IMG/VR virus record: IMGVR_UViG_3300025073_000989
Origin: a virus
Lineage: Duplodnaviria; Caudoviricetes
Length of the DNA: 64,000 bases
Direction: 5' to 3' (one strand)
Made by a program: the position numbers and the translations under genes. Positions 7,549 to 25,820 of this stretch are shown piece by piece (within the stretch, counting starts at the first letter, position 1; the number at the start of each line of letters is the position of its first letter). The notes beneath the pieces are model-generated. The model saw nothing but the letters and a program-made list of their open reading frames with translations. It ran no database searches and was not told where the DNA came from.

Positions 7549-7966
7549 ATCCGTTGGTTCCTCTAACTGTTTCTTCTAAATTAGTAGTCTCAATAAAGTG
7601 TGCTGTATAAACTGGACTAAACTTCATTTGTGCTACTCGTTCTCCTTTTTCAATACTAAGCTCTTCTTTCCCGAGGTTAATAAGGGCTACTTTTATATTG
7701 TTTCGATAATGATTGTCCACAGTGCCTGGCTGATTTATTACAATAAGTCCTCGCTTCCAAGCTTGGCCGCTACGTGACCTTATTTGAGCCTCAAAGCCCT
7801 CAGGCATAGCGATCTGTAAACCAGTGTCTGCCAGGTAACGTTCTCCTGGTTTAATCGTGAAGGACTCTACAGTGGCCAGATCACAGCAAGCATCTCCTGG
7901 GTAAGCGTAAGTTGGAACTACTGCGTCTTCATGCACCTTCTTTAAATAAACTCTGATGTCGTTCAT
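7529..7966 (-). CDS. dut: Trimeric dUTPase
   Basis: GDACCDL, RSRSG, PGTVD..YR, AQM, RG..GFGSSG (five motifs). Confidence 0.95.
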   Translation of the reverse strand: MNDIRVYLKKVHEDAVVPTYAYPGDACCDLATVESFTIKPGERYLADTGLQIAMPEGFEAQIRSRSGQAWKRGLIVINQPGTVDNHYRNNIKVALINLGKEELSIEKGERVAQMKFSPVYTAHFIETTNLEETVRGTNGFGSSGR

Positions 7967-11544: not shown

Positions 11545-12621
11545 TTATCCCCTATCAGCCATTATCTGCGTAACTTTAAACATATTATTATAAAAAACAT
11601 ATTCTGCCGGTTTACCTGTCATGTATATTGGAACACTTAAAATATCTAAAGCTTTGGATAATTTCACACCTTCTCCAATTTTACCTGCCTTTTTTAAACA
11701 TGCTACAAAGTAACCACAAACAGCTATCCTTACTGCCTCAACGGGTAAAGTTGTATTTAGTTTATCAAACATACCTATTGAATCCTTAAATCTACCAAAC
11801 GATAAAGCTCTGCATAATTCTAATAACTGCGGACTGTCCTCGGCGAGAAGAATACCCAAAAACTGATTAACAGCCTCCAAAGACCACGAGCCCTCATTCA
11901 TAATATCATTTAATATAACTAAAGCATCTCTTGGTACGCCTTTGGTTTCTTCAGCTATAAGGTTTATCACATCCTCTTTATATTCTTCGCCTTCATATTG
12001 AACCACATTTATTAGCATTGCTTTTATGTCACCAATGGGCAAAGTATCAAACTGCATTCTAGAGCACCTTGATAAAAAAGCATCACCTCCAACCTTTTTA
12101 CTTTTCATTGAATCTGGTTGATTGGTACAAAAAATAAAATAAACATGAGAATATCCATCTTCTATCTCTTTTAAAAGAAGATCTTTAGCGGCGTCTGTTA
12201 GCTTATGAGCTTCGTCAAGAATTAAAACTTTATTTCTAGCATTAAAAGGGGCAGAAGGTAAATCTTTTACTAACTTTTCAATAGCATCTTTGCCTCCATC
12301 CCTACCAACATTAACCTCATGAATATCTATGTTATTACCATTAAGAATCGACTTACAGGATTGACAAGACAAACATGGAGCAGACGTAGATAAAGCAGTA
12401 GCCTCACAATTTACACTCAAAGCTATTATCCTAGCTACGCTGGTTTTGCCACAGCCGGCCTGACCGCTAAAAAGAAGAGTACGTGGTAATTTATTATTAT
12501 CTAAGTAATTTTTCAAAAGTTGTTTATTTTTACCGTTACCAATTAGTTCATCCACAGTACAAGGCCTGTATACAGTACTTAAACTATTACCCCTCATATT
12601 GTTTTCTCTTTTTACAAGCAT
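11545..12621 (-). CDS. dnaX: Clamp-loader AAA+ subunit (DnaX gamma/tau-like, short form)
   Basis: YRP....LIG, GQAGCGKTS Walker A, C...PC..C..C zinc module, LDEAH, SRC. Confidence 0.88.
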   Translation of the reverse strand: MLVKRENNMRGNSLSTVYRPCTVDELIGNGKNKQLLKNYLDNNKLPRTLLFSGQAGCGKTSVARIIALSVNCEATALSTSAPCLSCQSCKSILNGNNIDIHEVNVGRDGGKDAIEKLVKDLPSAPFNARNKVLILDEAHKLTDAAKDLLLKEIEDGYSHVYFIFCTNQPDSMKSKKVGGDAFLSRCSRMQFDTLPIGDIKAMLINVVQYEGEEYKEDVINLIAEETKGVPRDALVILNDIMNEGSWSLEAVNQFLGILLAEDSPQLLELCRALSFGRFKDSIGMFDKLNTTLPVEAVRIAVCGYFVACLKKAGKIGEGVKLSKALDILSVPIYMTGKPAEYVFYNNMFKVTQIMADRG

Positions 12622-13130
12622 TGCTTTCTCCTCAAAATTTCTGGTTTGAGTATTTCATATAATTCAGACAAAACACCAGTACCACTAATAGAATAAAACA
12701 TTCTATAAGCTATGTTCTTTATACTACTTACAGCATCTTCAGGACAAATAGACAGCGGTATCATTTGCATACATTCTATATCGGAGTAAGAATATCCTAT
12801 ATACAACACTTCTTCTGGTGATACCTCATATCGTTGAAGAATTTTTAATAATTCTCTTTTCTTATCTTTAGGAGCCCAGTAAAATGGTATATTCTTCCTC
12901 CTGCATAAATGATAAGATATGGAATTATCTGTTGATAGAAATACAAAAATAAACTCTTTTTTTATTTCATTAATTGCTTCAAAGTCCTTTATACAAAAGT
13001 ACTTAAACGGAGTGTTACCAAGTTCATCATAAGAAATTAATCCCTCTGTTATAGTACCCTCAACCTCACTAACTATTACTTTTATCTTTTTTAGCATTTC
13101 TAAAAACTGTTCCATTTTTCTTACCCCCAC
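12612..13130 (-). CDS. KdsC/YrbI-like HAD protein with degenerate catalytic motifs
   Basis: KIKVIVSEVEGTITEG (canonical DxDG reads EVEG), F..KD..AI, PEEVLYIG, CP.DA. Confidence 0.8.
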   Translation of the reverse strand: MGVRKMEQFLEMLKKIKVIVSEVEGTITEGLISYDELGNTPFKYFCIKDFEAINEIKKEFIFVFLSTDNSISYHLCRRKNIPFYWAPKDKKRELLKILQRYEVSPEEVLYIGYSYSDIECMQMIPLSICPEDAVSSIKNIAYRMFYSISGTGVLSELYEILKPEILRRKQCL

Positions 13131-13592: not shown

Positions 13593-13621
13593 ATTATAAT
13601 TACTTTCTTATACTTTGTCAA
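13593..13621 (-). promoter_or_regulatory. Consensus sigma70 promoter
   Basis: TTGACA-N17-TATAAT; the -35 overlaps the rmlD-like stop. Confidence 0.8.
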
Positions 13622-14421
13622 GACAGTATAGTTTCTGATAAACTTCTTAACTCAATTAACTGATCCTCCAGTGGAGGAATAACGATATTATTTTTACTAA
13701 CAGATAAAAGTGTCCTGTCGCACATTATACTAGTTGCTTTAGGATTTACCTTAACATTTAAATTATATACTTCAGAAATAAGTTTAACCAAAGCAAACTT
13801 ACTAAAAACTACCGGAGAATATATATGTTGTACACCATTCCAATATAAATTACCATTTATAATAGTAGCACAAACCTTGGCAAATTGCAAACAAGTTATA
13901 CCGTTCCAAAAATGATTTGTATAACCATCAACCTCTTTGTCTTTATTACTTTTTACCCACTCCAATAAAGATTTCTTGTTGTACTTTTCTTCTCCTATAA
14001 TAGAAGTTCTTATAACACAGCAATTATCTGGCTCACCCAAAGATTTAGATCTACCATAAATATCAACTGCATCGTGAAAATCTTTTTCATTATACAAGCC
14101 TTTTACGCCTAAAAAAACGCAATCACTACTTGGATGGATCAGTTTTGCGCCAACAGACTCACAGTGATTTGCAACTACCCATGGCAAGGCAGAATTAACA
14201 AGTATAAAGTCCAAAGGACTTACTTTCTTACGTTGTTTTATAACTCCTATGCAATTTATAACCACATCTCCTTTAATTATAGAATTAAAATTAGTTGTAG
14301 TAGCTTTAGTTGCATCTAGCATTTTCCTTGTTACATCTACAACGTCATAATTTAATGATTTAAAGTAAACAGATACATATCTACCAAGCATCCCATTACT
14401 ACCTAAAACAAAAAGCCTCAT
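13618..14421 (-). CDS. RmlD-like NDP-4-keto-6-deoxyhexose reductase (QnlB/WbvR-like)
   Basis: GSNGMLG, VINCIG, SSDCVF.G, YGRSKSLGE. Confidence 0.88.
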   Translation of the reverse strand: MRLFVLGSNGMLGRYVSVYFKSLNYDVVDVTRKMLDATKATTTNFNSIIKGDVVINCIGVIKQRKKVSPLDFILVNSALPWVVANHCESVGAKLIHPSSDCVFLGVKGLYNEKDFHDAVDIYGRSKSLGEPDNCCVIRTSIIGEEKYNKKSLLEWVKSNKDKEVDGYTNHFWNGITCLQFAKVCATIINGNLYWNGVQHIYSPVVFSKFALVKLISEVYNLNVKVNPKATSIMCDRTLLSVSKNNIVIPPLEDQLIELRSLSETILS

Positions 14422-15407
14422 AACAAAAAACCTCCCCGGTATAATAAACTTTTAAGGGTTTCATAATTACCAATCTCGTATGAAGATGAGTAACTTTCAA
14501 ATGGTACATTTTGCTTATTATCTAAATGTGTGTAGTCTCTATTAATTTTTAAATCCGATTTAATAACGTAGTAATCATCGTCATACACTACGGATCTTGG
14601 TGCCTCATATTCAGAAATAAGTAGCTCATGTACCTTCTCGCCCTCCCTTGCCCCAATTTCTTTTATTTTTGTGTCTTTATTTCCGTAATGATCTATAAGA
14701 ACTTGTGCTAAAGTTTTAATATAAAATGCTGGCATATGCATAACAAAAATCTCTCCACCAACAGAGCATTCAGAGGCTTTAAAAAGCAGAGCAATGGCAT
14801 CTGGCAATGTCATAAAATAACGAGTCATGTCGCCATTAGTTAATGTTATCTCATTATATTTTTTAATTTGATCTATAAATAATGGAACAACACTTCCGTT
14901 AGACCCTAGCACATTACCTGCCCTTATACAAACAAAATCCGTATTATCAGTTAGATTATTAGCTTGTATAGTTATCTTTTCTCCAATGGCTTTAGTAAAT
15001 CCGTACGTATTACAAGGACTTACGGATTTATCTGTAGAAATATCCAAAACCTTCTTTACCTTGTATTTAATTGCTGCATTAACTATATTTGTTGTACCAT
15101 TTACATTTGTTTTTATTGCTTCTTGTGGATGATTTTCGCATACAGGCACATGTTTTAATGCTGCGAGGCAAAAAACATAGTCAACCCCTCTGTCAAAAAC
15201 CCTCTCAACTGCTGAGTAGTCTCTAATATCACCTATTACAAATTCTATACGTGGGTCTTTAAATTTACGTTCCATATTAACTTGAGCAAGCTCTCCCCTT
15301 GAAAATACTATAATTTTTTTTGGATCTTTTTCAAGTAATTGCTTTACAAGTTCATTTCCCCATGATCCTGACGCCCCTGGACAAAAAATATTTTTATCTT
15401 TAAACAT
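14418..15407 (-). CDS. UDP-GlcNAc 4,6-dehydratase(/epimerase), FnlA/CapE/PseB family
   Basis: GASGSWG, AALKHVP, STDK...P.N.YG.TK, R.GNVLGS.GSVVP.F, MTRYFM, GEK.HE. Confidence 0.92.
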   Translation of the reverse strand: MFKDKNIFCPGASGSWGNELVKQLLEKDPKKIIVFSRGELAQVNMERKFKDPRIEFVIGDIRDYSAVERVFDRGVDYVFCLAALKHVPVCENHPQEAIKTNVNGTTNIVNAAIKYKVKKVLDISTDKSVSPCNTYGFTKAIGEKITIQANNLTDNTDFVCIRAGNVLGSNGSVVPLFIDQIKKYNEITLTNGDMTRYFMTLPDAIALLFKASECSVGGEIFVMHMPAFYIKTLAQVLIDHYGNKDTKIKEIGAREGEKVHELLISEYEAPRSVVYDDDYYVIKSDLKINRDYTHLDNKQNVPFESYSSSYEIGNYETLKSLLYRGGFLL

Positions 15408-15419
15408 TATTATTTCTCC

Positions 15420-15896
15420 TTATAATTTAGTAGCCAATAAGACTATTTCATTTAATGACCAGGTAGTATCTCTATGCTCTATAGAGTCTACCGCGAAATT
15501 ATACTTAGTACACATACGCCTTAGTTTCTCCTCGTAGATACCGTGTCTATGATAGTCATATTCGTGCAGATGCTCAGCGTATAGAAACTCTTCTAACTGA
15601 GCTATAGGCCAATCACCTTTGTTATAACTATTAATAGCCGAAACAATACTCGGAGCATACAAAGCTAACTTTCCACCTGACTTTAACATACGACTACACT
15701 CAGAAAAGAAGTGGTCAAACTCATTTTTAGTAAGGTGCTCAATCATATGCTCAGAGAATATTTCATCAATGGAAGCGTCTTCGTAGGTTAACTCTAAGAT
15801 GTTACCAACTACTGTCTCTTCTGTACGTTTAACAGCGTCGATATTAGTGTAGCCTTCTTGGTTTCTTTTTCCACTACCTAAATTTAACTTAATCAT
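15420..15896 (-). CDS. Class I SAM-dependent methyltransferase (type 11-like)
   Basis: KLNLGSG, SEHMIEH, LK.GG.L. Confidence 0.85.
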   Translation of the reverse strand: MIKLNLGSGKRNQEGYTNIDAVKRTEETVVGNILELTYEDASIDEIFSEHMIEHLTKNEFDHFFSECSRMLKSGGKLALYAPSIVSAINSYNKGDWPIAQLEEFLYAEHLHEYDYHRHGIYEEKLRRMCTKYNFAVDSIEHRDTTWSLNEIVLLATKL

Positions 15897-16678
15897 TCCT
15901 CTACCATCTCCTTGGCGTCTGTTGGTTTATTACCACTTTTTCTTTCTACTGAATAATGATGATAGGCTATAGAAGACTTACTCATAGTAAAATGAGCACC
16001 CGCCATACTACATCTATCAAAAAATAGTACGTCTGGGGCGTTAGGACCAGTCACTGTTAAATCCCAGGGGCCGGCTGCTTCCCAAAATCTTCTAGGAATC
16101 AAGTAGGGCATAGTACAACAAGTACCCCATGGGCCTCCGCGCTCCTCTTGTGTCTCTAACTTATCTTCATAAATCTGATTATATATAATATTGAACTTAC
16201 TAATATCAAACTTACCATACTCTGGCATACCACAGTCTGCTTGTACTAGAGCGTCTCCTGGGTAGTAACTTATTAGACTACAATTTACTATGTCATTTAT
16301 ATTAGCGTACTTTGCTAAATTAGTCAACCAATTTTTACCGAAGTACTGGTCGGTGTTTACTAGCCCACAATAATCATTAAGTGTAAATCCGTAGTTAAAC
16401 CCGGCGTTCATCATACCACGTAAATTAGGGACGTAACCTACATTGTAGTTAGTTTCGTAAGGTAAAACTCTTACAAAATTATATTTTGATTGCAGTTCAA
16501 TAAGATACTCTGAGACCTCTTTGGTAGGTCCCCATGTAACTACTATGTAGTCAAAGTTATTAGTGCCAGCATTTTCTATAAGAGACTCAGAAGAAAAGCG
16601 TAGCATCTCTAAAGCTGACGAAACGCAATTAAAAATAGACACTCTAGGCATTAAGAACCCCCTTAAAATAATAACCAA
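15893..16678 (-). CDS. GT-A fold glycosyltransferase (GT2-like)
   Basis: RVSIF..., N.GFNY, LVNTDQYF..NWL, WE..GPW, D..F. Confidence 0.7.
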   Translation of the reverse strand: MVIILRGFLMPRVSIFNCVSSALEMLRFSSESLIENAGTNNFDYIVVTWGPTKEVSEYLIELQSKYNFVRVLPYETNYNVGYVPNLRGMMNAGFNYGFTLNDYCGLVNTDQYFGKNWLTNLAKYANINDIVNCSLISYYPGDALVQADCGMPEYGKFDISKFNIIYNQIYEDKLETQEERGGPWGTCCTMPYLIPRRFWEAAGPWDLTVTGPNAPDVLFFDRCSMAGAHFTMSKSSIAYHHYSVERKSGNKPTDAKEMVEE

Positions 16679-17297
16679 TAATTACTGCGTCTGAAGCATC
16701 CTTGGTACCTAGAGAAAAGAAGATAACATCTGTTATATGCTTGAAAGATTCTAAAGTCATATCTGCCTGCTCATGTTCTTCATACTTATTATCTGCTGTA
16801 GATACCATCCCTGGCCCATCATAATAATTACCAAATGGACAAATGCTTACTAATCCCTTAGTAGCTAGTTGTTGTATCTTAGTAAATGTAGGAAGCATAT
16901 CTTCGTGCTTAACGTGCTCTGGGCCATGAATCCAACATACTAAATCAAAGTCGTTTGTGATTATTACTTTATCTACCTCACGCACATCACCTTTTAATAT
17001 AGGATAGTCTCTACCAGAAAACTTCTGTATGTATGGTTCGTATATTTCAATATATGTAATTTTACTAGCACCATAATTTTTTAAAATTCTAGGCCATTCA
17101 GTGAACATAAGGTCAGTACTACCAGTACCTACTAATAAAATAGAGCTCCCTTTTATGTGTACACAGAAAGATTCAAGAAACTGTACAAAATCTAGCGGTA
17201 CATCATGCGTTAAATCCTTAGCTAACCCATTCAATCTTAAATAAGAAAACCAATCAAACATTATGCCTCCATCAATCGTGGTAGTGGCACTATCCAT
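16644..17297 (-). CDS. Class I SAM-dependent methyltransferase
   Basis: ILLVGTG, IEIYEPY, GDVR, HGPEHV. Confidence 0.7.
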   Translation of the reverse strand: MDSATTTIDGGIMFDWFSYLRLNGLAKDLTHDVPLDFVQFLESFCVHIKGSSILLVGTGSTDLMFTEWPRILKNYGASKITYIEIYEPYIQKFSGRDYPILKGDVREVDKVIITNDFDLVCWIHGPEHVKHEDMLPTFTKIQQLATKGLVSICPFGNYYDGPGMVSTADNKYEEHEQADMTLESFKHITDVIFFSLGTKDASDAVIIGYYFKGVLNA

Positions 17298-18460
17298 GTG
17301 CCTTTGTAATTAGGATTTCTACTTTTTATTTCTTCTATAAAATTATAAGCTGTAACTAAAATATAGTCAGGCTGGTATCCTTCAATGAACGACGAATGTT
17401 TGATTTCAATATGGGAATATGGAGTGAACTTACCTAATTTTAATGGTGAGTCGTCTATAATATAAGGAATATCTTTACTTGTAATTCCAAAATTAGCAAA
17501 TAAAATATTAGCCTGCCCACTGGCACCATAAGCTACTATACGTTTTCTTTGAGAACGGACTTCTTCTAAGAAGTGCCCAACCTCCAAAGTAGACCTCTCA
17601 ACTCCAACTTTAAACTCTGAGACTAGGTCTAATATCTTATCTACTTTTGGATTTACATAAGATAACACATTACTTCTTTCAAAGGCGCAGTTAATACTCC
17701 CGCCATGTATTGTGTTCTTTGAGCACGATACTAGTTTATACCCGTAGTTAGACATTAAATGAGCCAGAGTATCCGCGGTATAATAAAATAGATGCTCATG
17801 ATAGAAAAATGGAAAACATAATTCTTTTAATAAATACTCGAAATCTTGTACTTGAATAATTAGTTTACCCTTATCTGCTAAGAGAACATCGATGCCGACT
17901 ATAACGCTTCTTAAGTCTTCCATATGCGCAAAATTATTAGCAGAGTATATAATATCCATCTCGCCCCAAGAGTTCTTAATATCATAAGCATTTTCTGTAT
18001 CAAAAAAGTCGTTAATTAAAACTACATCTTTGGGAGTGTTTAACTGCGCAGTGTCTGAAGGGTCTACATTTATAAACGTGTGGCCATACTCGGATAGGCG
18101 CTCACCTAGTGGGCAGGAATTGCCGCCAATTTCTAAAATCTGTAAGGGACCACCGCTTTCCTTATGAATAAGTTCTGCTTGAGAATAGAAAAAATCTCTA
18201 AGAGTACTTATGGTATGTGTTTTATAAAAATATTTTCTAAATAGAAACTCTTTAGGAATAAAACACCGCTGATCTAGCTGTGCTATGCCGCAACTCTTAC
18301 ATAGAATAATGTTTAAAGGCAGAAGTTCATCATCCTTAGGGCTAGTTAAAAAATTACCAGCTATAGGACTATTTGCTATGTAGAATATAGACTCTACATT
18401 TTTAGAATTACAGAAATAACAAGTCATCATATTTTCCATTAGTATAAGTTTTGCCTTCAA
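17261..18460 (-). CDS. NDP-sugar C-methyltransferase (TcaB9/NovU family)
   Basis: N-terminal CxxC...CxxC zinc site, LEIGGN, NNFAH, YHEH..Y, HGGS, YGASG, DDSP.K.G. Confidence 0.88.
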   Translation of the reverse strand: MKAKLILMENMMTCYFCNSKNVESIFYIANSPIAGNFLTSPKDDELLPLNIILCKSCGIAQLDQRCFIPKEFLFRKYFYKTHTISTLRDFFYSQAELIHKESGGPLQILEIGGNSCPLGERLSEYGHTFINVDPSDTAQLNTPKDVVLINDFFDTENAYDIKNSWGEMDIIYSANNFAHMEDLRSVIVGIDVLLADKGKLIIQVQDFEYLLKELCFPFFYHEHLFYYTADTLAHLMSNYGYKLVSCSKNTIHGGSINCAFERSNVLSYVNPKVDKILDLVSEFKVGVERSTLEVGHFLEEVRSQRKRIVAYGASGQANILFANFGITSKDIPYIIDDSPLKLGKFTPYSHIEIKHSSFIEGYQPDYILVTAYNFIEEIKSRNPNYKGTWIVPLPRLMEA

Positions 18461-19355
18461 ACACTTCAGCGTCTTCGCTAGCAGTAATTAACAGCAATCC
18501 ATCATAACATTTTACTACGTATTTGTCATTAAAAATCTCTACCACTTCGCCGTATTCTTTATCTTTATAAAAATCTAACATGGTGTCCCATACTTGAGCT
18601 GCCCATATCATTATCTTCTTACCCTTGTAAAAAGTAAAAGCCCCAGGATAAGGAAAAGTCACGGCACGTATTAGATTGTAAATATCAAACACCGAAGTGG
18701 TCCAATCTATCTCCCCGTCCTCTGGAACACGTTTAGAAAAGTAGGAAGGCATACCAACTTGTTTAGTAGGTACTAAATCTCCGTTTAGTAACTTAGGTAT
18801 AGTACGAGATAGCATGTACTTAACTACTACGCTTACTTTATAGTATAGAGTTTCACAAGTATCGGTCTCTCGTATCTCAAATATCTGGTAATCTAATATG
18901 TCGCCTTCGTCTATTCCAGGCACTATGGTAAATAGATTCCATATTAAGCGCTTCTTGCCTTTAATAATAGACCAGTTTAATGGGGAACGGCCTCTTCCTT
19001 TTGGAAGAAACTCAGAGCTACCATGCTGCCCTATAGGATACTCTATAGTACTTAGTATCTCTTGTGAAATTAATCTCTGCCAGCCGCCAAGTAAAAGAAT
19101 ATCAAACTTATTATCTTTAAAATAATCAATATCTTGAGTATCTTTAAAACTATAGGAGTTGGCATAGTATATTTCTATACCTAGCGCATTAGCCAAGTCC
19201 TCGTAGGATACCCAAGTGCTTTCACTTTTATTTTTTATTGCTGTCTCTTTTGAAATGGTTACAATATGTGTAACTTTGATATCTTTACTAAATAAAAACT
19301 TAATTATATCCTTACCTTGTTCTTGTATACCACATAACACTATTTTATTAAGCAT
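18408..19355 (-). CDS. N10-formyl-THF-dependent formyltransferase (ArnA-N/Fmt-like, probably sugar N-formyltransferase)
   Basis: GWQRLI, H.S..LP.GRGRSP.NW, DEGDIL, DG.IDW, IRA...PYPGAF. Confidence 0.88.
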   Translation of the reverse strand: MLNKIVLCGIQEQGKDIIKFLFSKDIKVTHIVTISKETAIKNKSESTWVSYEDLANALGIEIYYANSYSFKDTQDIDYFKDNKFDILLLGGWQRLISQEILSTIEYPIGQHGSSEFLPKGRGRSPLNWSIIKGKKRLIWNLFTIVPGIDEGDILDYQIFEIRETDTCETLYYKVSVVVKYMLSRTIPKLLNGDLVPTKQVGMPSYFSKRVPEDGEIDWTTSVFDIYNLIRAVTFPYPGAFTFYKGKKIMIWAAQVWDTMLDFYKDKEYGEVVEIFNDKYVVKCYDGLLLITASEDAEVFEGKTYTNGKYDDLLFL

Positions 19356-19357
19356 AG

Positions 19358-20284
19358 TTATAACCTCGATAAGGTATTAAACCTCGGGACTTCTAAATAG
19401 TTTACAGTGTTATACTGCTCAATACGGGTATTCTCTGTAGTAAATGCCACAGAACACCCATTAATATCTAAAGTCCTAGTTATATCATAGTTGTAAGCCC
19501 CATTAGGGTAAGAGAATGGAATAAAATTAGTATTTGACATATACTTGATAAACAATATGGATTGTTGGATATCCCTATTTCTATCATCAGGTGCCATTAA
19601 TAATAAATTCTCTGAAGAATATCCGTGACCACCAATTTCCATCCCTGCTTTAGTAAGTTCGAGCACTTCTTCAAGATTTAAATAAAATCCTTCACTAAAT
19701 TTTTTAGTGTCTTTTGTTACAAACTCTTCAAATAGCTCATCTACAATTGTATATTTATCGTTAGTGTATTCTCTAAGAAAATTGGTTATAAAAACCATTT
19801 CTTTAGACCACCAATTAGTTCTAAATTTAGAAACTGAAAAAGTGTCCCATAGTGTATCTTTTTCTTCTTTAGAAAAAAATAACTTGTTCATAATTTTATT
19901 TACAAGCAGTGCCTCACTCTCAACGCGTGAAAGAATAAACTGTATCTTATGAGAATGGATCATAGTCCTATCCAATACCGGACCTCCAGGAATTAAAAAA
20001 GTTCCAGGAACTTTATAAGCAACTAATAGTGGAAGTACATTAGTATAATGTCCTGCTAATCCATCATCAAAAGTCAGTACTGCGTAGTCATGTTCTAAGT
20101 TGTCTATGTTTAAATTGTAGAGCTGTTCACTAGATATAACTTTGTAATTTGTAGTTATATGCATTAATTGTGTTTCAAACTGCTTTACGCTTAGGAAAGA
20201 CTTTAGATCGTATCTTCTTTTATACTTTGGATTTATGTTATCATAGATATCATGATACATAAATATGGTAATTGAGCCATTCAC
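19358..20284 (-). CDS. NodB/polysaccharide deacetylase family (CE4) protein
   Basis: MYH, LTFDDG, EIGGHG, FSYPNG, PRF. Confidence 0.88.
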   Translation of the reverse strand: MNGSITIFMYHDIYDNINPKYKRRYDLKSFLSVKQFETQLMHITTNYKVISSEQLYNLNIDNLEHDYAVLTFDDGLAGHYTNVLPLLVAYKVPGTFLIPGGPVLDRTMIHSHKIQFILSRVESEALLVNKIMNKLFFSKEEKDTLWDTFSVSKFRTNWWSKEMVFITNFLREYTNDKYTIVDELFEEFVTKDTKKFSEGFYLNLEEVLELTKAGMEIGGHGYSSENLLLMAPDDRNRDIQQSILFIKYMSNTNFIPFSYPNGAYNYDITRTLDINGCSVAFTTENTRIEQYNTVNYLEVPRFNTLSRL

Positions 20285-21090
20285 GAGTCGCGCTCCCCCT
20301 CAATGAAATGTGATATTGGGGCATCAAATACGGTGATATGTTGCATACCAAATTGAACGCCTAATATATCATTGAAGTAGTAATCGTCAGCTGATTTATA
20401 TACAGGTCTATCATTAGGATGCCCAAACTCAACACCTTGGCGACCAAAAAAAGCATTACCAATAGGGTACATACCACTCTCAATAAAACGTTCTTTACTA
20501 ATTACACACGGGCCAAATAGGCCTCCTGGTTTAGTGATATCATCTTTAATTGATTCAGAAAAAGCCATCCAATCTTTCCATTGAAATGTTGTGGGGTCTA
20601 CCCCAAAATTGTTACCTAAATAAGTTAGTAGGTTTATCCCGTACATACCACTATCCATCTTACCAGACTCTATTAGTCGGCCACAAGGAATATTTATACC
20701 ATCGTGGTGCTTCAATAAGTTGGCTAACCACCATCTACAAAACCCAAAGTCTGAATTTACAAAACATAAGTTGTCGTAAGTACTTGTTTGGCCTCCATAA
20801 TTATAAGCTCGGTAGACTCTATTTAAATAAAACTCGTTTGGGTCTGGCGCGTTGTACACTGTGTAAGGAATATCTAAAGTAGAAAGTACATCTAGTACCT
20901 CTTCTGTAGCATCGTTAGCAATTATCCTAACACCGACATCCCATCCTGGTACGTTACACAAGTCGCTTTTAAGCTGGTCAGCAATAAAATGTAGATAGTC
21001 TAAAGACTTATATATCAGAGATATTACTTCTATATTATTTTTAATCATATTAGGTCTCTTTATTAAAATAAAAGTTAGGGTACTTAGCAA
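20281..21090 (-). CDS. GT-A fold glycosyltransferase (GT2-like), paralog of 15893..16678
   Basis: RAYNYG, FVNSDF.F..WWL..L, G..P, DD..F. Confidence 0.65.
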   Translation of the reverse strand: MLSTLTFILIKRPNMIKNNIEVISLIYKSLDYLHFIADQLKSDLCNVPGWDVGVRIIANDATEEVLDVLSTLDIPYTVYNAPDPNEFYLNRVYRAYNYGGQTSTYDNLCFVNSDFGFCRWWLANLLKHHDGINIPCGRLIESGKMDSGMYGINLLTYLGNNFGVDPTTFQWKDWMAFSESIKDDITKPGGLFGPCVISKERFIESGMYPIGNAFFGRQGVEFGHPNDRPVYKSADDYYFNDILGVQFGMQHITVFDAPISHFIEGERDS

Positions 21091-21844
21091 TAAACTTCAT
21101 AATACATTTAGGTGCTAAATCATTTTCAAATATATTGACGATACTCTTCTGGGCCAAAGGTTCGGTTCTGTTCCATAAGTCTGTTTGGGAAAGCATCTTC
21201 TTCTCTATATCCTCTATGCCGCCGACACTATTAATTATAACGTGAGACTCTGCTATGTTCTCGACCTTAAGACGTATCTTTTCAGCGCCGCCCATATAGC
21301 TGTAATGCCAGCCCCCATTAGGTACTGAATTACTACAATTAAATGCCCCTATTCTACTTGTCTGGACAGACTCGTAGTGGCCTCTAGTTAGTATGACTGG
21401 AGCTGACCATAGTTGGTTTTGTTTACAATTTACATAGTAATAAAATAGGTGTTGTTGTAATGCTACAGGATTATTAGTATTTAGATTAGCTAGTACAGTA
21501 GTAGGGTTAGGTATCTCATCTATATCTGATATGACGATTTTATCCCCCTCTACTGCCATGCTCTCAAGGCCTCTTTCAATACAGAGTCTTTGAAAGTTTT
21601 CAGGTACCCACATAGTTCCTAGAGTGTAGTCAGGTAAGTCCTCTACTTTAATGTAAATAATCTTATTTAAGTAAGGAGTAAATAGATGTTTATTTTGTGC
21701 AAAAATAAACTCTTTAGGTTTTCCTGTATGGGTCTTGTTTGCCTCAACTAAAACAAAGTGGTCAACAGTATCATATAAGGTCATTAGTCTTAAATCTAAT
21801 AACTCTAGCTCATTGAAGAATGTAAAGCAATCAAATATTTGCAT
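21050..21844 (-). CDS. Glycosyltransferase family 17 (GnT-III-like)
   Basis: DCFTFFNELELL.LRL, FVLVEA..TH.G..K, E..QR, SDIDEIP, GWHYSY. Confidence 0.88.
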   Translation of the reverse strand: MQIFDCFTFFNELELLDLRLMTLYDTVDHFVLVEANKTHTGKPKEFIFAQNKHLFTPYLNKIIYIKVEDLPDYTLGTMWVPENFQRLCIERGLESMAVEGDKIVISDIDEIPNPTTVLANLNTNNPVALQQHLFYYYVNCKQNQLWSAPVILTRGHYESVQTSRIGAFNCSNSVPNGGWHYSYMGGAEKIRLKVENIAESHVIINSVGGIEDIEKKMLSQTDLWNRTEPLAQKSIVNIFENDLAPKCIMKFIAKYPNFYFNKET

Positions 21845-21845
21845 G

Positions 21846-22460
21846 CTACACCTTCACTACATGGAAGACATGGTGCCCCTGTACTATGCCGATATCGACC
21901 TCTCTGCTGAAAGGAGCTGCACACATACAATGCATATCATTAAATATCTTTTCTAAGAAGCCTGGAGACCTACATAATCCACCATTTTTAATATCGTCTA
22001 AAGAAGGCTGCTCACCATTATCCTCAAAAGACTTATTAGACACAAACTCTATAGCTAACACTCCGTGGGTATTTAACACTCGAACTATTTCTTCTAGCTC
22101 TTCAATTAATAGTTTAGTGGGCACATGCTGCACTACATTATTACAAATAATAACATCGTAGTAATCTGATGAGATACTCTTTATGTCCTTAATACTATAG
22201 GTGTGTTCGCAGTATGGAGTTACTCTAGCCAAAGCTACATCTGATATATCTAACGCAGATACCTTGGCGCCAGCTTCATAAAGCCCTTGAGTAACGTAGC
22301 CTAAACCTACTCCTATCTCTAGTACTTTTGTATCTTTTTGGATATAAGAGTTTAAGTGTAAAAAAGCTATTGTTTCTTTGTAGTCACAACCAGACAATGC
22401 GTCTGTATTGTTTGCGGTATGTTGCGTATCCCAAAATTTTTCTACTAAATCTTCTGTCAT
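21846..22460 (-). CDS. Class I SAM-dependent methyltransferase
   Basis: VLEIGVGLG, LDIS, VVQHV, RVL...G. Confidence 0.85.
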   Translation of the reverse strand: MTEDLVEKFWDTQHTANNTDALSGCDYKETIAFLHLNSYIQKDTKVLEIGVGLGYVTQGLYEAGAKVSALDISDVALARVTPYCEHTYSIKDIKSISSDYYDVIICNNVVQHVPTKLLIEELEEIVRVLNTHGVLAIEFVSNKSFEDNGEQPSLDDIKNGGLCRSPGFLEKIFNDMHCMCAAPFSREVDIGIVQGHHVFHVVKV

Positions 22461-22490
22461 AATTTATTTACCAAATAAAAAAACTCTGCA

Positions 22491-23318
22491 TTAAATTGTA
22501 TCTCCCACGTAGAAACTATTTTTCACGTAATAGTCTGTTAATTTTAAAGACTGCTCATACAGTGCTTTATTTTTTGCCAATCGACTAGAAAAGTTAGGTA
22601 TGTCGCTTAATACAGATGGGTGGTATTGATGCAAACAAAACGGGCTTTCTACCATAACTGTATTCATTTTCTTCTTAATAACTCTTTCAGCAAACTCTGT
22701 ATCATCATAGGAGTGCCCATCAAAAAACCTTTCATCGAAGCCGCCCAAACTTCTCATATCTTCCATGGCCATGGATGTTAAAAAATTAAACATGCACGGT
22801 CTATATATTGGATGAGCAAACCAAGAGCTATAACGTCCTGCTGAAGACTCGCAGCTGTTTTTAGTAAAACCTCCTATAATTTCACTAACACTGTCGTACG
22901 ATGTAGTGAGTGTAAAATCTATATTAATTAAATTCTTAGTAGACTGCTTGCTTAATGAATAGCATGAAAATACTAGGTACTGATTATCTTTATTATTATC
23001 AGCAACAAACTGTAAAACATCACCGACGTACATACACTCTGGGCTTTGTAAAATTATTATATCACCAACAGCCATGGCTATTCCCATATTGTACGGAATA
23101 CAGGGATTAACATGTGTCTTATTTTCCTTGTCTATCCTTACCAACTTAATAAAAGGAAAGTAACAAACAAGGTCTTCTAGTCTGTGATCAGTATCACTAG
23201 CATCGTCTACTATAATATACTCAAAATCTTTAAATGTAGATTGCTCCATAGTTCTTAATGTATTTAGTAATTCAAATTTACGATTGTAGTAAGGAGAAAC
23301 TATTGATATCTTAGGCAT
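22491..23318 (-). CDS. Glycosyltransferase family 2
   Basis: ISIVSPYYNR, IIVDDAS, YNMG, GGFDE, YDD.EF, HQYH. Confidence 0.88.
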   Translation of the reverse strand: MPKISIVSPYYNRKFELLNTLRTMEQSTFKDFEYIIVDDASDTDHRLEDLVCYFPFIKLVRIDKENKTHVNPCIPYNMGIAMAVGDIIILQSPECMYVGDVLQFVADNNKDNQYLVFSCYSLSKQSTKNLINIDFTLTTSYDSVSEIIGGFTKNSCESSAGRYSSWFAHPIYRPCMFNFLTSMAMEDMRSLGGFDERFFDGHSYDDTEFAERVIKKKMNTVMVESPFCLHQYHPSVLSDIPNFSSRLAKNKALYEQSLKLTDYYVKNSFYVGDTI

Positions 23319-24164
23319 TTAAATATACCCTTCTAGCTTAAGTATAGTTGTCATACTACAGTTCCTATTAAGCCCATCGTTATTTAGATAATGCTTGCTT
23401 AACCTATGCCCATTATACCAATGTATGCACATAACATTATCATTAATACAACTCAAATCATTTTTCATATACAGGTTGTTAATACTAATGGTGTTATCAA
23501 TTTGAATAGGGTGGATGTTATATGGGTAGTATGTAGAAAATTTAGCCCCAACAATACCATCAAATTCAGATAGTGAATCCAATGTAGGATAAAGCTTACT
23601 AAGCATACAGCTACCGAATACTTCATGACTAAAAGGAGGAGTAACTTTCTTTGTTTGCTCTACCAAAGACCCAACATAAGGATCTTGTTTACTATGAATC
23701 ATAATACCAATACTATGGCCACCACCAAAATCATTTATAAAAGATACTACAGCAGTTATATCATCTACAACAACGTCACCAACATAATGATTTTTATTGA
23801 AATGGGACATTGGTTTTAGCCACAGTACATCAAAGTCTGACCAAACCCCTCCTTGCTCATATAACAAATGGTATCTTAATATATCTGATCTTAAAATATT
23901 ATGATGATTTAAATCTATAGAATATTTATTTAAATCTATTTTTTTAACATCAACATACTCTTTGTTTACAACAGAATCAAAATAATCTTTTCCTGTATAG
24001 TCTGGTATATATTTATTACCCCCAAGATATGGCTGCTCTGGTATATACAAGTTTATATTCCAATCAGGATTTAATCTATGGAAGGATTCTACGGTAAATG
24101 TCTGTAATTTAGACATACTACTGCCATTCCAATACAGATGCAATTCTTTAGGTATTTTAAACAT
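23319..24164 (-). CDS. Glycosyltransferase family 32 (OCH1-like DxD)
   Basis: IPK.LH.YW, SD.LRY.LLY..GGVW.DFD, HWY. Confidence 0.85.
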   Translation of the reverse strand: MFKIPKELHLYWNGSSMSKLQTFTVESFHRLNPDWNINLYIPEQPYLGGNKYIPDYTGKDYFDSVVNKEYVDVKKIDLNKYSIDLNHHNILRSDILRYHLLYEQGGVWSDFDVLWLKPMSHFNKNHYVGDVVVDDITAVVSFINDFGGGHSIGIMIHSKQDPYVGSLVEQTKKVTPPFSHEVFGSCMLSKLYPTLDSLSEFDGIVGAKFSTYYPYNIHPIQIDNTISINNLYMKNDLSCINDNVMCIHWYNGHRLSKHYLNNDGLNRNCSMTTILKLEGYI

Positions 24165-24166
24165 AA

Positions 24167-24739
24167 TTATAAAACTAATTCCTCTACAATTTTCTCCAAA
24201 TCATAGGTTCTCTGTTCATGCACACACTCATAAAACCCTTTTTCATCAATTTCTTTTAGTTTGGCAATTAGATACTTCTCTACTCTATCACTTAGCGTTT
24301 GTGAAGCCTGACTCATATGTGCTGGCCGATTATTAACTCTGAAATCTTCACGTTTAATGGTTTCAATAGACAAACGATCCATCATTTCTCCTAGGCTATA
24401 CACAATGTCGTCACTAGCCCAACTATCAGAAGGCACTACTTCTACAGTACTTTTAATCTTTGATATAAATTTATTAATCCTGGCTTTAGAAGAAACCCTG
24501 TACTCACCAACACTCCTAGCTACCCACTCCATATCAGCTATTAACTTATTATTAACCTCGGTCTTTTTTCTTTCAGCAATTACAAGCATGTTGGATTTGT
24601 AGCACCTAAAATTAGCATCAGATAATATATAAACATACTCCATCAACTCATCTATATCATACATTGAAATATGGTTTGGACAAAAAATCTCAGAAACATG
24701 TTTGTAAAAATCACTAAAATCAATTTTCTCAAGAATCAT
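24167..24739 (-). CDS. DUF4254-like helical protein
   Basis: SLGEMMDRLSI..IK motif with upstream helical segment. Confidence 0.5.
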   Translation of the reverse strand: MILEKIDFSDFYKHVSEIFCPNHISMYDIDELMEYVYILSDANFRCYKSNMLVIAERKKTEVNNKLIADMEWVARSVGEYRVSSKARINKFISKIKSTVEVVPSDSWASDDIVYSLGEMMDRLSIETIKREDFRVNNRPAHMSQASQTLSDRVEKYLIAKLKEIDEKGFYECVHEQRTYDLEKIVEELVL

Positions 24740-24752
24740 AACTATCTCCTTT

Positions 24753-25820
24753 TTACTTTCCTAAAATTATATTTATTACTATATCAGAAACATTCTCCAC
24801 CAAATAATCAGACGGAGGAAACCATCTTATGCTCCTTTTATTTAATATATTAAAAGCATCTAACATGTTTTCATACTTTGTTCCAGTTAAAATAGAAGAG
24901 CCACACTCAATCAGCTCTTGTCTCTCTGTGGACTCTCTTATTATAATAGAATGAATACCAAACAAACAGGTTTCTTCCGTTACTGTGCCCGAGTCAGATA
25001 TTACCATCTTTGAATTTTTCTCTAAATTAACAAAATCAAAAAAACCAAGAGGCTCTGATAATATAACTCTTTCAGAAGTAAAAGTCAACCCAGATCCTAT
25101 TATTTTATCTTTTGTTCTTGGATGTACTGAAAAAAGCACCTTGTATGTTTTTGATATGGTATTTATTGCATTCACAATATTAGATAATACTTCCAGATTA
25201 TCTACATTCTCTGCTCTATGGGCAGTTACTAATACATAGGTTTGTTTATTTAGAGCCAACCTATCCAGTATATCACTACTGTCTATATCTTTTTTATAAT
25301 AGTTTAGGACTTCTAATATAGGATTACCAATCTTAAATACTTTATTTTTATGATAACCCTCATTTAAAAGATTTTGTTTGCTATTATCAGTGTAAGGTAG
25401 ATTATATGTAGATAAACTATCAATTATCTTTCTATTGCCTTCCTCTGGAACTAGATCATTAAAACATCTATTCCCTGCCTCCATATGTATTATTGGTATA
25501 CCGTTCCTATTGGCTAATATAGAAAGTAATCCTGAATTAGTATCACCTAAAATTAATATTTTATCAGGCTTTTCTTTTTTTAGTATCTCTTCAAATTCTA
25601 TCAGCGCGTTTCCTAAAAATTTACTAAACCCACTTTGTGGTTTAAATATATAATCTGGATTCCTTATTCTTAACTCATCAAAGAAAACAGTAGATAAACT
25701 AGCGGTGTAATTCTGGTTGGTAAAAACTAGAACGTGGTCTACTAACTTATCTAATTTGTTTATTATAACAGACAACCTTATTAGTTCTGGACGAGTTCCA
25801 GCTATAGTAAGAACTCTCAT
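24753..25820 (-). CDS. Non-hydrolysing UDP-HexNAc 2-epimerase (FnlC/WbjD/WbvD-like)
   Basis: GTRPELIRLS, GDTNS, HMEAG.R, PEE.NR, HR.EN, HPRT, SDSG...EE, TERQE. Confidence 0.92.
   Translation of the reverse strand: MRVLTIAGTRPELIRLSVIINKLDKLVDHVLVFTNQNYTASLSTVFFDELRIRNPDYIFKPQSGFSKFLGNALIEFEEILKKEKPDKILILGDTNSGLLSILANRNGIPIIHMEAGNRCFNDLVPEEGNRKIIDSLSTYNLPYTDNSKQNLLNEGYHKNKVFKIGNPILEVLNYYKKDIDSSDILDRLALNKQTYVLVTAHRAENVDNLEVLSNIVNAINTISKTYKVLFSVHPRTKDKIIGSGLTFTSERVILSEPLGFFDFVNLEKNSKMVISDSGTVTEETCLFGIHSIIIRESTERQELIECGSSILTGTKYENMLDAFNILNKRSIRWFPPSDYLVENVSDIVINIILGK

What the first reader, a model, noticed from the sequence alone, without database searches (positions are those of the whole stretch)
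13618..25820. Complete three-enzyme route to a rare L-acetamido-6-deoxy sugar (UDP-L-RhaNAc / L-QuiNAc)
An FnlA-type dehydratase (14418), an RmlD-type reductase (13618) and an FnlC-type 2-epimerase (24753) are all present. This is the enzyme combination of V. cholerae O37 WbvB/WbvR/WbvD and Megavirus Mg534-536, which make UDP-L-RhaNAc and UDP-L-QuiNAc from UDP-GlcNAc. No FnlB (cupin-fused) gene is seen, which favours QuiNAc/RhaNAc over FucNAc. Convergence with Megavirus fibril glycosylation is inference.
Basis: partly seen in the sequence, partly recalled or inferred. Interest (0 to 1): 0.7.

Follow-up and report, generated by a model that had tools for sequence, protein, structure and literature searches.

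The report
Phage pathway for rare acetamido L-sugars

Summary
All three ORFs are intact on the minus strand of a complete 268,764-bp tailed-phage genome.

- **Reductase (13618-14421):** 47% identical over its full length to Megavirus Mg535, the characterised UDP-4-keto-6-deoxy-L-IdoNAc 3-epimerase/4-reductase that makes UDP-L-RhaNAc. It shows no similarity to the FnlB-type enzyme CapF.
- **2-epimerase (24753-25820):** 46% identical to Mg536 and 43% to CapG. In a tree it groups with them, apart from E. coli WecB.
[quoted passage not shown] It has the catalytic Tyr of PseB and Mg534, not the Met of FnlA/CapE, so "FnlA-type" is only loosely right.

The phage genome has no FnlB, DegT aminotransferase, RmlC, NeuB or nucleotidyltransferase.

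The same genes lie together in at least ten other huge-phage contigs. The reductases of phages and giant viruses form one well-supported clade, so "convergence" with Megavirus is better read as homology.

The sugar products and the target of the glycan are inferred, not shown. I class this as a new member of a known kind, of moderate interest.

The parts
14418..15407 (-). [quoted passage not shown] Predicted product: UDP-2-acetamido-2,6-dideoxy-beta-L-arabino-hex-4-ulose, which is the same compound as UDP-4-keto-6-deoxy-L-IdoNAc.
   Evidence: PF02719 at 310 bits; PseB HMM 287 bits and FnlA HMM 258 bits, both below their cut-offs. PDB matches: FnlA 4j2o 243 bits, Pen 6bwc 220, CapE 215, FlaA1/PseB 213, Mg534 4tqg 163. 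The motif alignment shows Tyr as in PseB, Pen and Mg534, against Met in FnlA and CapE. 33% identical to Mg534. 57-79% identical to the dehydratases that sit next to the reductase in related phage contigs.
13618..14421 (-). Mg535-type short RmlD-like SDR (267 aa). Predicted UDP-4-keto-6-deoxy-L-IdoNAc 3-epimerase/4-reductase giving UDP-L-RhaNAc. Probably translationally coupled to the dehydratase (ATGA overlap).
   Evidence: 47% identical to Megavirus Mg535 over 267 aa, E 2e-91. Only 61 bits to the rmlD HMM, whose cut-off is 224. No similarity to CapF. The GxxGxxG and YGxSK motifs and Cys101 are invariant in 16 family members. Cys101 aligns with Cys109 of E. coli GDP-fucose synthase and with Tyr106 of RmlD.
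24753..25820 (-). FnlC/CapG/Mg536-type non-hydrolysing 2-epimerase (355 aa). Predicted to interconvert UDP-L-RhaNAc and UDP-L-QuiNAc.
   Evidence: PF02350 at 281 bits. The best PDB match is CapG 7ya2 (301 bits), then Rickettsia bellii 4hwg (272), with E. coli WecB at about 119. 43% identical to CapG and 46% to Mg536. In the tree it falls in a 33-row clade (SH-like 97) with CapG and Mg536, apart from the type II cassette epimerases and from E. coli WecB. It is the only Epimerase_2 gene in the genome.
22491..23318 (-). GT2-family glycosyltransferase (275 aa) that travels with the sugar genes. Candidate transferase for L-RhaNAc or L-QuiNAc; this is an inference.
   Evidence: PF00535 and Glyco_transf_7C. 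Homologues lie in 9 of the 14 related type I phage loci and in 13 of the 15 giant-virus-clade loci. One of these is in Megavirus at L123:5154-6086 (32% identity, E 4e-43); that position is upstream of the 277-aa ORF that fits Mg538, and from the gene order in PMC10117803 I take it to be the multi-GT gene mg539, which I did not check.
15420..24739 (-). Glycan-tailoring and transferase genes lying between the dehydratase/reductase pair and the epimerase: several SAM methyltransferases, a C-methyltransferase-like protein (17261-18460), an Fmt/ArnA-like formyltransferase (18408-19355), a polysaccharide deacetylase (19358-20284), GT17-like, GT2 and GT32 transferases, and unknowns. This is the context of the pathway, not part of the three-enzyme route.
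   Evidence: Pfam and NCBIfam matches. None of the 21 island proteins has a 19-residue window with Kyte-Doolittle hydropathy of 1.6 or more. The related phage L002 has a shorter version of the island without the formyltransferase, deacetylase and C-methyltransferase block.

Best explanation
The phage encodes a soluble three-enzyme route from host UDP-GlcNAc to two rare nucleotide sugars. Step 1: the Tyr-type inverting dehydratase (14418-15407) removes water across C4/C6 and inverts C5, giving UDP-4-keto-6-deoxy-L-IdoNAc. Step 2: the Mg535-type reductase (13618-14421), whose gene overlaps the dehydratase gene by ATGA, epimerises C3 and reduces C4 with NAD(P)H to give UDP-L-RhaNAc. A Cys two residues after the catalytic Ser is the candidate base for the epimerisation. 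Step 3: the CapG/Mg536-type 2-epimerase (24753-25820) converts part of the UDP-L-RhaNAc into UDP-L-QuiNAc. The surrounding membrane-free glycosyltransferases and methyltransferases then use these sugars in the cytoplasm, most likely on a phage-made acceptor such as a virion protein. What is shown: gene presence and intactness, family membership, close homology to characterised enzymes, conserved linkage, and absence of alternative branch enzymes. What is inferred: the substrates, the stereochemistry of the products, the 3-epimerase activity, and the acceptor.
For: The reductase is 47% identical to Mg535, and the activity of Mg535 was shown experimentally according to PMC9614988 and PMC10117803. 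The epimerase is 46% identical to Mg536 and 43% to CapG and sits in their clade. Its second-best PDB match is a Rickettsia bellii 2-epimerase, and the Rickettsia pso operon carries WbvB/R/D homologues for L-QuiNAc (PMC6765297); whether that chain is the pso gene product was not checked. The dehydratase has the STDK and YxxxK motifs of inverting enzymes. Cys101 of the reductase aligns with the catalytic Cys109 of GDP-fucose synthase; Mg535 has the same STDC motif, and the review names a conserved Cys as the C3-epimerisation residue. Linkage is conserved: the dehydratase lies 0-45 bp from the reductase in 12 related phage loci, and the CapG-type epimerase lies within 10 kb in 10 of them. The same three families sit together in bacterial loci. 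The genome lacks FnlB, DegT, RmlC, NeuB, CMP-transferase and NTP-transferase genes, and the two SDR proteins are the only ones present.
Against: There is no biochemistry for these proteins. The dehydratase is only 33% identical to Mg534 and scores slightly better against the PseB model than the FnlA model. The epimerase lies 9.3 kb from the other two genes and also passes the generic wecB cut-off. The Cys is also kept in relatives that have an RmlC-like cupin next door, so it does not by itself prove 3-epimerase activity. The direction of C4 reduction cannot be read from sequence.
Confidence: 0.7

Rival explanations
1. The dehydratase and reductase make UDP-L-RhaNAc only. The distant epimerase is an ordinary UDP-GlcNAc 2-epimerase that supplies UDP-ManNAc as a separate building block for the same glycan.
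For: The epimerase passes the NCBIfam wecB cut-off (251 bits against 210). It lies 9.3 kb from the pair, with transferase genes in between. Its third-best PDB match, M. jannaschii 4neq (236 bits), is deposited as a UDP-GlcNAc 2-epimerase.
Against: It is closer to CapG, Mg536 and the Rickettsia enzyme than to E. coli WecB (301, 272 and about 119 bits) and shares their clade. In the megaphages L003, L004 and L099 it lies only 1.6-1.8 kb from the pair. 23 of the 26 epimerases from loci with an inverting dehydratase fall in the CapG/Mg536 clade.
Confidence: 0.12
2. The pair makes a different 6-deoxy-L-HexNAc: for example 6-deoxy-L-AltNAc or L-IdoNAc if C3 is not epimerised, or the L-talo sugar L-PneNAc if C4 is reduced from the other face. 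The epimerase would then give a sugar other than L-QuiNAc, such as L-FucNAc.
For: Stereochemistry is not readable from sequence. The dehydratase is of the PseB/Mg534 type, which does not epimerise C3. The Cys thought to act in C3 epimerisation is also present in relatives that have a separate cupin epimerase.
Against: 47% full-length identity to Mg535, whose product is UDP-L-RhaNAc. No similarity to the L-talo-forming CapF/FnlB, and no such gene in the genome.
Confidence: 0.1
3. The dehydratase is a true PseB that feeds a 4-amino-sugar or pseudaminic-acid branch completed by host enzymes. The island's formyltransferase would formylate the amine, and the RmlD-like protein would have another role, for example on a dTDP sugar.
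For: The PseB HMM is the best-scoring NCBIfam model (287 bits). The catalytic Tyr is as in PseB. The island holds a formyltransferase that needs an amino sugar. A weak KdsC-like phosphatase gene sits next to the reductase gene.
Against: The score is below the PseB cut-off of 408. The genome has no DegT/PseC aminotransferase, no NeuB/PseI, no CMP-transferase, no RmlC and no nucleotidyltransferase. The reductase gene overlaps the dehydratase gene and stays next to it across phages, giant viruses and bacteria.
Confidence: 0.05

Closest known systems
Megavirus chilensis Mg534 / Mg535 / Mg536 (UDP-L-RhaNAc and UDP-L-QuiNAc pathway for fibril glycans; Piacente et al. 2014 as reviewed in PMC9614988 and PMC10117803)
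   Same: The same three families and similar protein lengths (323/270/370 aa in Megavirus, 329/267/355 aa here). Identities are 33%, 47% and 46%. Both dehydratases are of the Tyr type and both reductases have the STDC/SSDC Cys. A related GT2 domain lies nearby in both. The reductases share one virus-rich clade (UFBoot 99, SH-aLRT 97).
   Different: The host here is a bacterium and the virus a tailed phage. The epimerase lies 9.3 kb from the pair rather than next to it. The dehydratase belongs to a separate phage clade that scores closer to bacterial FnlA and PseB than to Mg534. The island also carries a formyltransferase, a deacetylase and many methyltransferases, and none of its 21 proteins gave a pyruvyltransferase match, whereas Megavirus has Mg538.
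Vibrio cholerae O37 WbvB / WbvR / WbvD, the homologous first three genes of the Rickettsia pso operon (Rc0456-Rc0458), and E. coli FnlA/QnlA/QnlB (UDP-L-QuiNAc for O antigens; Kneidinger et al. 2003, cited in PMC6765297 and PMC7685785)
   Same: The same three-step logic: dehydratase, RmlD-like reductase, 2-epimerase. Bacterial loci holding Mg535-like reductases next to FnlA-like dehydratases and CapG-like epimerases were found here (L029, L035, L062, L068, L074, L075, L082).
   Different: In the bacterial loci examined, the partner dehydratase carries the FnlA/CapE-type Met (13 of 13 where the motif could be read), whereas the phage and giant-virus partners carry Tyr. In V. cholerae the dehydratase is described as also epimerising C3. 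I could not obtain the WbvB/R/D sequences, so identity to them is untested.
FnlA / FnlB / FnlC, equal to S. aureus CapE / CapF / CapG (UDP-L-FucNAc pathway)
   Same: The first and last enzymes are homologous: the dehydratase is 39% identical to CapE and the epimerase 43% to CapG.
   Different: The middle enzyme is unrelated: no similarity to CapF and no FnlB model match anywhere in the genome. The dehydratase has Tyr, not the Met of CapE and FnlA.
PseB (FlaA1) of the pseudaminic acid pathway
   Same: It is the best-scoring NCBIfam model (287 bits), with the same Tyr-type active-site motif and the same predicted 4-keto product.
   Different: The score is below the equivalog cut-off of 408. PseC, PseI and the CMP-transferase are absent from the genome. 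The gene is coupled to a reductase instead of an aminotransferase.

Membership tests
Mg535/WbvR-type UDP-4-keto-6-deoxy-L-HexNAc 4-reductases (short RmlD-like SDRs) | RmlD-like extended SDR with a GxxGxxG motif and a catalytic Ser...YxxxK | tested here: met
   PF04321 at 70.8 bits. G7, G10, G13, Y122 and K126 are invariant in 16 homologues.
Mg535/WbvR-type UDP-4-keto-6-deoxy-L-HexNAc 4-reductases (short RmlD-like SDRs) | Full-length similarity to a biochemically characterised member, clearly above the similarity to true RmlD | tested here: met
   47% identity to Mg535, E 2e-91. By contrast, the rmlD HMM gives 61 bits (cut-off 224), PDB RmlD chains give E 1e-11 or weaker, and hhalign to E. coli RfbD shows 22% identity.
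Mg535/WbvR-type UDP-4-keto-6-deoxy-L-HexNAc 4-reductases (short RmlD-like SDRs) | Cys two residues after the catalytic Ser/Thr (the GDP-fucose-synthase-like epimerisation residue said to be conserved in Mg535) | tested here: met
   SSDC101VF aligns with Fcl SSC109 and with RfbD STDY106. Mg535 has STDCVY. Caveat: relatives with a neighbouring cupin also keep the Cys.
Mg535/WbvR-type UDP-4-keto-6-deoxy-L-HexNAc 4-reductases (short RmlD-like SDRs) | Uses a UDP-linked (not dTDP-linked) 4-keto-6-deoxy-L-HexNAc and yields the L-manno product | not testable with these tools
   The support is indirect only. The phage genome has no RmlA, RmlC or other SDR gene, and the gene is coupled to a UDP-GlcNAc dehydratase gene.
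Inverting UDP-GlcNAc 4,6-dehydratases (PseB / FnlA / Mg534 group of Polysacc_synt_2) | Soluble protein of about 330 aa matching Polysacc_synt_2, with the STDK motif and Y/MxxxK | tested here: met
   PF02719 at 310 bits over residues 9-279. STDKSVSPCNTYGFTK is seen in the alignments. The soluble inverting enzymes score higher (213-243 bits) than PglF/WlaL (about 160 bits).
FnlA in the strict sense (TIGR04130; FnlA/CapE/WbjB) | Score above the equivalog cut-off, and Met replacing the catalytic Tyr | tested here: not met
   258 bits against a cut-off of 730. The protein has Tyr where A. baumannii FnlA and CapE have Met. It therefore should not be filed as FnlA, although it belongs to the same wider group.
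PseB in the strict sense (TIGR03589) | Score above the equivalog cut-off, and the presence of PseC and the rest of the Pse pathway | tested here: not met
   287 bits against a cut-off of 408. No DegT, NeuB or CTP_transf_3 gene in the genome.
FnlC/CapG/WbvD/Mg536-type 2-epimerases of UDP-6-deoxy-L-HexNAc | Non-hydrolysing Epimerase_2 protein that groups with CapG and Mg536 rather than with WecB | tested here: met
   PDB ranking: CapG 301, Rickettsia 272, E. coli WecB about 119 bits. 43% and 46% identity to CapG and Mg536. Clade of 33 rows with SH-like support 97 (FastTree only).
FnlC/CapG/WbvD/Mg536-type 2-epimerases of UDP-6-deoxy-L-HexNAc | Acts on UDP-L-RhaNAc (or UDP-L-PneNAc) rather than on UDP-GlcNAc | not testable with these tools
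   Even for Mg536 the activity is inferred from the sugar composition of the virion (PMC9614988).
L-FucNAc pathway (FnlA/FnlB/FnlC) | An FnlB/CapF-type reductase (SDR with a C-terminal cupin domain) | tested here: not met
   NF047837 has no match in the whole genome. The reductase has no similarity to CapF.

The most novel reading that the evidence does not exclude
Huge phages and giant viruses of eukaryotes share one virus-borne version of the L-RhaNAc/L-QuiNAc pathway: a Tyr-type dehydratase, a Cys-bearing Mg535-type reductase, a CapG-type epimerase and a linked GT2 transferase. This version has moved between, or descends from a common source for, viruses of bacteria and of protists. In this phage it feeds a membrane-free cytoplasmic factory that coats the virion with a methylated and possibly N-formylated glycan, the phage counterpart of Mimiviridae fibril glycosylation.
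Probability: 0.3. Interest if true: 0.75.

Novelty: new member of a known kind. Interest (0 to 1): 0.5.

Why it matters
L-RhaNAc and L-QuiNAc were long thought to be bacterial sugars and were then found on Megavirus fibrils. Here the same enzyme set sits in a complete tailed-phage genome, and relatives of its reductase occur in 339 IMG/VR stretches. This suggests that making rare 6-deoxy-L-hexosamines is a common trait of large viruses of bacteria, not a peculiarity of giant viruses. It supplies candidate enzymes for making these nucleotide sugars. It also points to glycan coats on huge phages that nobody has seen, which could affect host recognition, immune or defence evasion, and particle stability. 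Finally, it links the glycosylation genes of phages and giant viruses through a shared gene clade.

Tried and rejected
- **No nucleotide relatives in GenBank phages.** blastn of the dehydratase/reductase DNA against the phage collection gave no match. tblastn found only distant hits plus the 635-kb uncultured phage LR745206.1.
- **No conserved fourth enzyme.** I suspected that the roughly 185-190-aa ORF next to the epimerase might be a fourth pathway enzyme, for example an RmlC-like one. The window and L002 proteins are homologous to each other (68% in the alignment). The ORFs at the same position in L003 and L004 look like methyltransferases and share only 19-24% identity. Pfam gave nothing, and the Atlas hint to DUF4254 is weak.
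- **hhalign to GDP-fucose synthase failed.** Only the N-terminus of the reductase family aligned. The Cys equivalence rests on a MAFFT alignment and on the SDR catalytic-Ser register.
- **The Cys does not mark the absence of a cupin epimerase.** I tested whether Cys101 occurs only in reductases that lack a neighbouring cupin. It does not: the Cys is nearly universal in the family.
- **WbvB/WbvR/WbvD sequences were out of reach.** The comparison with V. cholerae is therefore indirect.
- **Other branches are absent.** Searches of the genome for DegT, FnlB, RmlC, NeuB, CMP-transferase and NTP-transferase were all negative.
- **No prior description found.** Literature searches found no paper describing this pathway in phages.

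Full report
**Setting.** The window is bases 203342-267341 (reverse strand) of a single 268,764-bp IMG/VR virus record that CheckV rates as complete. Nearly all ORFs of 100 aa or more, and every gene discussed here, are on the minus strand. The genes flanking the finding are typical of phages: UvsX-like recombinase, DnaB-like helicase, primase, sliding clamp, clamp loader, family A DNA polymerase, dUTPase, ribonucleotide reductase and ThyX. Notes from other windows of this genome describe tail genes, so this is a tailed jumbo phage and not a giant virus (I did not test those notes).

**The observation.**
- The reductase (13618-14421, 267 aa) matches RmlD_sub_bind. It reaches only 61 bits on the rmlD equivalog model, whose cut-off is 224.
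- The dehydratase (14418-15407, 329 aa) matches Polysacc_synt_2 over its whole length (310 bits). It scores 287 bits on the PseB model and 258 on the FnlA model, below both cut-offs of 408 and 730.
- The epimerase (24753-25820, 355 aa) matches Epimerase_2 (281 bits) and passes the generic wecB cut-off.
- The dehydratase stop and the reductase start overlap as ATGA, with GGAGG a few bases upstream. This suggests coupled translation.
- These are the only two extended SDR genes and the only Epimerase_2 gene in the genome.

**Direct comparison with characterised enzymes.** A scan of IMG/VR with an alignment of reductase homologues returned 339 viral stretches. One is a 1,259,197-bp record, locus L123, whose 323-aa ORF is identical to PDB 4TQG, the structure of Megavirus chilensis Mg534, over residues 2-323. 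Its neighbours are ORFs of 270, 370, 312 and 277 aa. These are the published lengths of Mg535 to Mg538 (PMC10117803).
- The phage reductase is 47% identical to Mg535 over 267 residues, E 2e-91.
- The epimerase is 46% identical to Mg536, E 4e-107.
- The dehydratase is 33% identical to Mg534, E 2e-53.
- Mg534 and Mg535 were shown experimentally to convert UDP-GlcNAc into UDP-L-RhaNAc through UDP-4-keto-6-deoxy-L-IdoNAc. Mg536 is held to make UDP-L-QuiNAc because that sugar is found on the fibrils (PMC9614988).
- A record in the phage collection that is really the S. aureus cap locus (OR849864.1) supplied CapE, CapF and CapG. The epimerase is 43% identical to CapG. The reductase shows no similarity to CapF, the FnlB-type enzyme.
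- Among solved structures, the best matches of the epimerase are CapG (301 bits) and a Rickettsia bellii 2-epimerase (272 bits), far above E. coli WecB at about 119 bits. The first three genes of the Rickettsia pso operon are homologues of the L-QuiNAc genes WbvB/R/D (PMC6765297).

**What kind of dehydratase.** The alignments show STDK followed by YGFTK in the phage protein.
- PseB (FlaA1), Pen and Mg534 also have Tyr at this position, whereas A. baumannii FnlA and CapE have Met.
- Among dehydratases next to Mg535-like reductases, the 11 phage relatives whose motif could be read, and 10 in the giant-virus clade including Mg534, have Tyr. All 13 readable bacterial ones have Met and reach 70% identity to CapE.
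- The gene is therefore not FnlA in the strict sense. It is the PseB/Mg534 kind, which dehydrates and inverts C5 only.
- This does not weaken the route, because the product of such an enzyme is the substrate of Mg535.

**The reductase active site.**
- The family keeps GxxGxxG, Tyr122 and Lys126.
- Where true RmlD enzymes have STDYVF, this family has S/T-S/T-D-C-V-F.
- In a MAFFT alignment, Cys101 falls on Cys109 of E. coli GDP-fucose synthase. Mg535 has the same Cys.
- The review states that a Cys shared with GDP-fucose synthase is the C3-epimerisation residue conserved in Mg535. This fits a bifunctional 3-epimerase/4-reductase.
- The fit is not proof, because the Cys is also present in relatives that have a separate cupin gene next to them.

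**Conserved linkage.** The reductase has about 4,100 homologues in the protein collection, many at 50-60% identity.
- In a 313-kb phage contig (L002), the same island appears in the same order next to the same replication genes, but shorter.
- In the 617-kb and 669-kb megaphage contigs (L004, L003), the epimerase, one small ORF, the dehydratase and the reductase are contiguous.
- Among the IMG/VR loci, those in the window's subclade have the dehydratase 0-45 bp from the reductase. Most have the CapG-type epimerase within 10 kb.
- In bacterial and archaeal genome bins, the reductase family occurs in two settings. In the first it sits with an FnlA-like dehydratase and a CapG-like epimerase, which is the WbvB/R/D pattern. 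In the second, more common one it sits in a cassette with a WecB-like epimerase, a GalE-like SDR and an RmlC-like cupin.

**Trees.**
- For the epimerase (103 rows, FastTree), the window falls in a 33-row clade with CapG and Mg536 (SH-like support 97). That clade holds 23 of the 26 epimerases from loci with an inverting dehydratase, and stands apart from the cassette epimerases and from E. coli WecB.
- For the reductase (62 rows, IQ-TREE with a mixture model), a 46-row clade (ultrafast bootstrap 99, SH-aLRT 97) holds all phage sequences, an 11-row giant-virus clade that includes Mg535 (97/91), and six sequences from genome bins. It excludes 15 bacterial sequences.
- Caveats: the outgroup branch is very long, the bootstrap had not fully settled, and both sets were chosen by similarity to the phage query. 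I therefore take this as good evidence for homology between the phage and giant-virus genes, but not for any direction of transfer.

**Exclusion of other branches.** The genome has no match to any of the following:
- the FnlB model;
- DegT aminotransferases;
- RmlC;
- NeuB;
- CMP-sugar synthetases;
- sugar-1-phosphate nucleotidyltransferases.

The control genomes gave the expected positives in each search. This argues against an L-FucNAc route, a pseudaminic-acid or 4-amino route, and a dTDP-rhamnose role for the reductase, unless host enzymes take part.

**Surroundings.**
- Between and around the three genes lie at least six glycosyltransferase-like genes, several methyltransferases, a C-methyltransferase-like gene, a formyltransferase and a polysaccharide deacetylase.
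- None of the 21 island proteins has a hydrophobic stretch typical of a membrane span. None matched a flippase, a polymerase or a polyprenyl-phosphate transferase family.
- The glycan is thus probably built in the cytoplasm on a soluble acceptor, as on giant-virus fibrils. That is inference.
- One GT2 gene (22491-23318) has homologues in most related phage loci and in the giant-virus loci, including the Megavirus cluster.

**Verdict.** The most likely function is synthesis of UDP-L-RhaNAc and UDP-L-QuiNAc by a Megavirus-like mechanism (confidence about 0.7). I found no paper describing this pathway in phages. I rate it a new member of a known kind, of moderate interest. What adds to the interest is that the genes are widespread in huge phages and share a clade with those of giant viruses.

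Noticed in passing
window 22491-23318 (minus); L123:5154-6086: The island's GT2 glycosyltransferase has homologues next to the sugar genes in 9 of 14 related phage loci and 13 of 15 giant-virus-clade loci. One lies in the Megavirus cluster (32% identity, E 4e-43), at the position where the published gene order puts the multi-GT gene mg539. It is a candidate cognate transferase for L-RhaNAc or L-QuiNAc.
   Followed up: partly
window 15420-21090 (minus): A block with methyltransferases, a C-methyltransferase-like gene (17261-18460), an Fmt/ArnA-like formyltransferase (18408-19355) and a polysaccharide deacetylase (19358-20284) is mostly absent from the otherwise syntenic phage L002. The genome has no aminotransferase, so deacetylase plus formyltransferase might swap N-acetyl for N-formyl on a sugar. 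This is speculation.
   Followed up: partly
window 12612-13130 (minus): A weak KdsC/KDN-9-P-phosphatase-like HAD gene (52 bits, cut-off 107) sits next to the reductase gene. It is conserved at that position in 9 related phage loci. Yet the genome has no NeuB and no CMP-sugar synthetase, and I did not search for KdsA. Its role is unexplained.
   Followed up: partly
loci L020, L015, L017 and many others; viral loci L090-L136: A second, more common cassette holds the same reductase family: a WecB-like epimerase, a GalE-like SDR, an RmlC-like cupin of about 149 aa, and the reductase. It is widespread in Ignavibacteria and Melioribacter bins and in a large clade of AT-rich viral contigs. It probably leads to 6-deoxy-L-HexNAc sugars by a four-enzyme route shaped like the dTDP-rhamnose pathway.
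   Followed up: partly
window 27068-28666 and 7963-9636 (minus): Two large ORFs have weak or partial matches to zinc-ribbon or DUF723 domains and to Vsr-like nuclease domains. The first, which also matches the Mom protein family, lies inside the glycan island. They may be homing-endonuclease-like or DNA-modification genes.
   Followed up: no
window 12612-32727 (minus): None of the 21 proteins of the island has a 19-residue window with Kyte-Doolittle hydropathy of 1.6 or more, and none matches a flippase, a polymerase or a lipid-carrier transferase. The whole glycan machinery looks soluble.
   Followed up: partly
window 20281-21090 (minus): A 269-aa protein with no family match has homologues in 39 of the fetched loci (27-53% identity in those I checked). 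They include bacterial Ignavibacteria and Melioribacter loci, where the gene lies 2-3 kb downstream of the reductase, and one giant-virus bin. It is an uncharacterised partner of this sugar pathway.
   Followed up: no
L086 (OR849864.1, phage collection): The record named 'Staphylococcus phage SA 1298 Kay' (flagged UNVERIFIED_ORG) holds, at the fetched stretch, an ORF series that fits the S. aureus capsule locus capA-capH by order and length. At least this part looks like bacterial chromosomal DNA, not phage DNA.
   Followed up: partly
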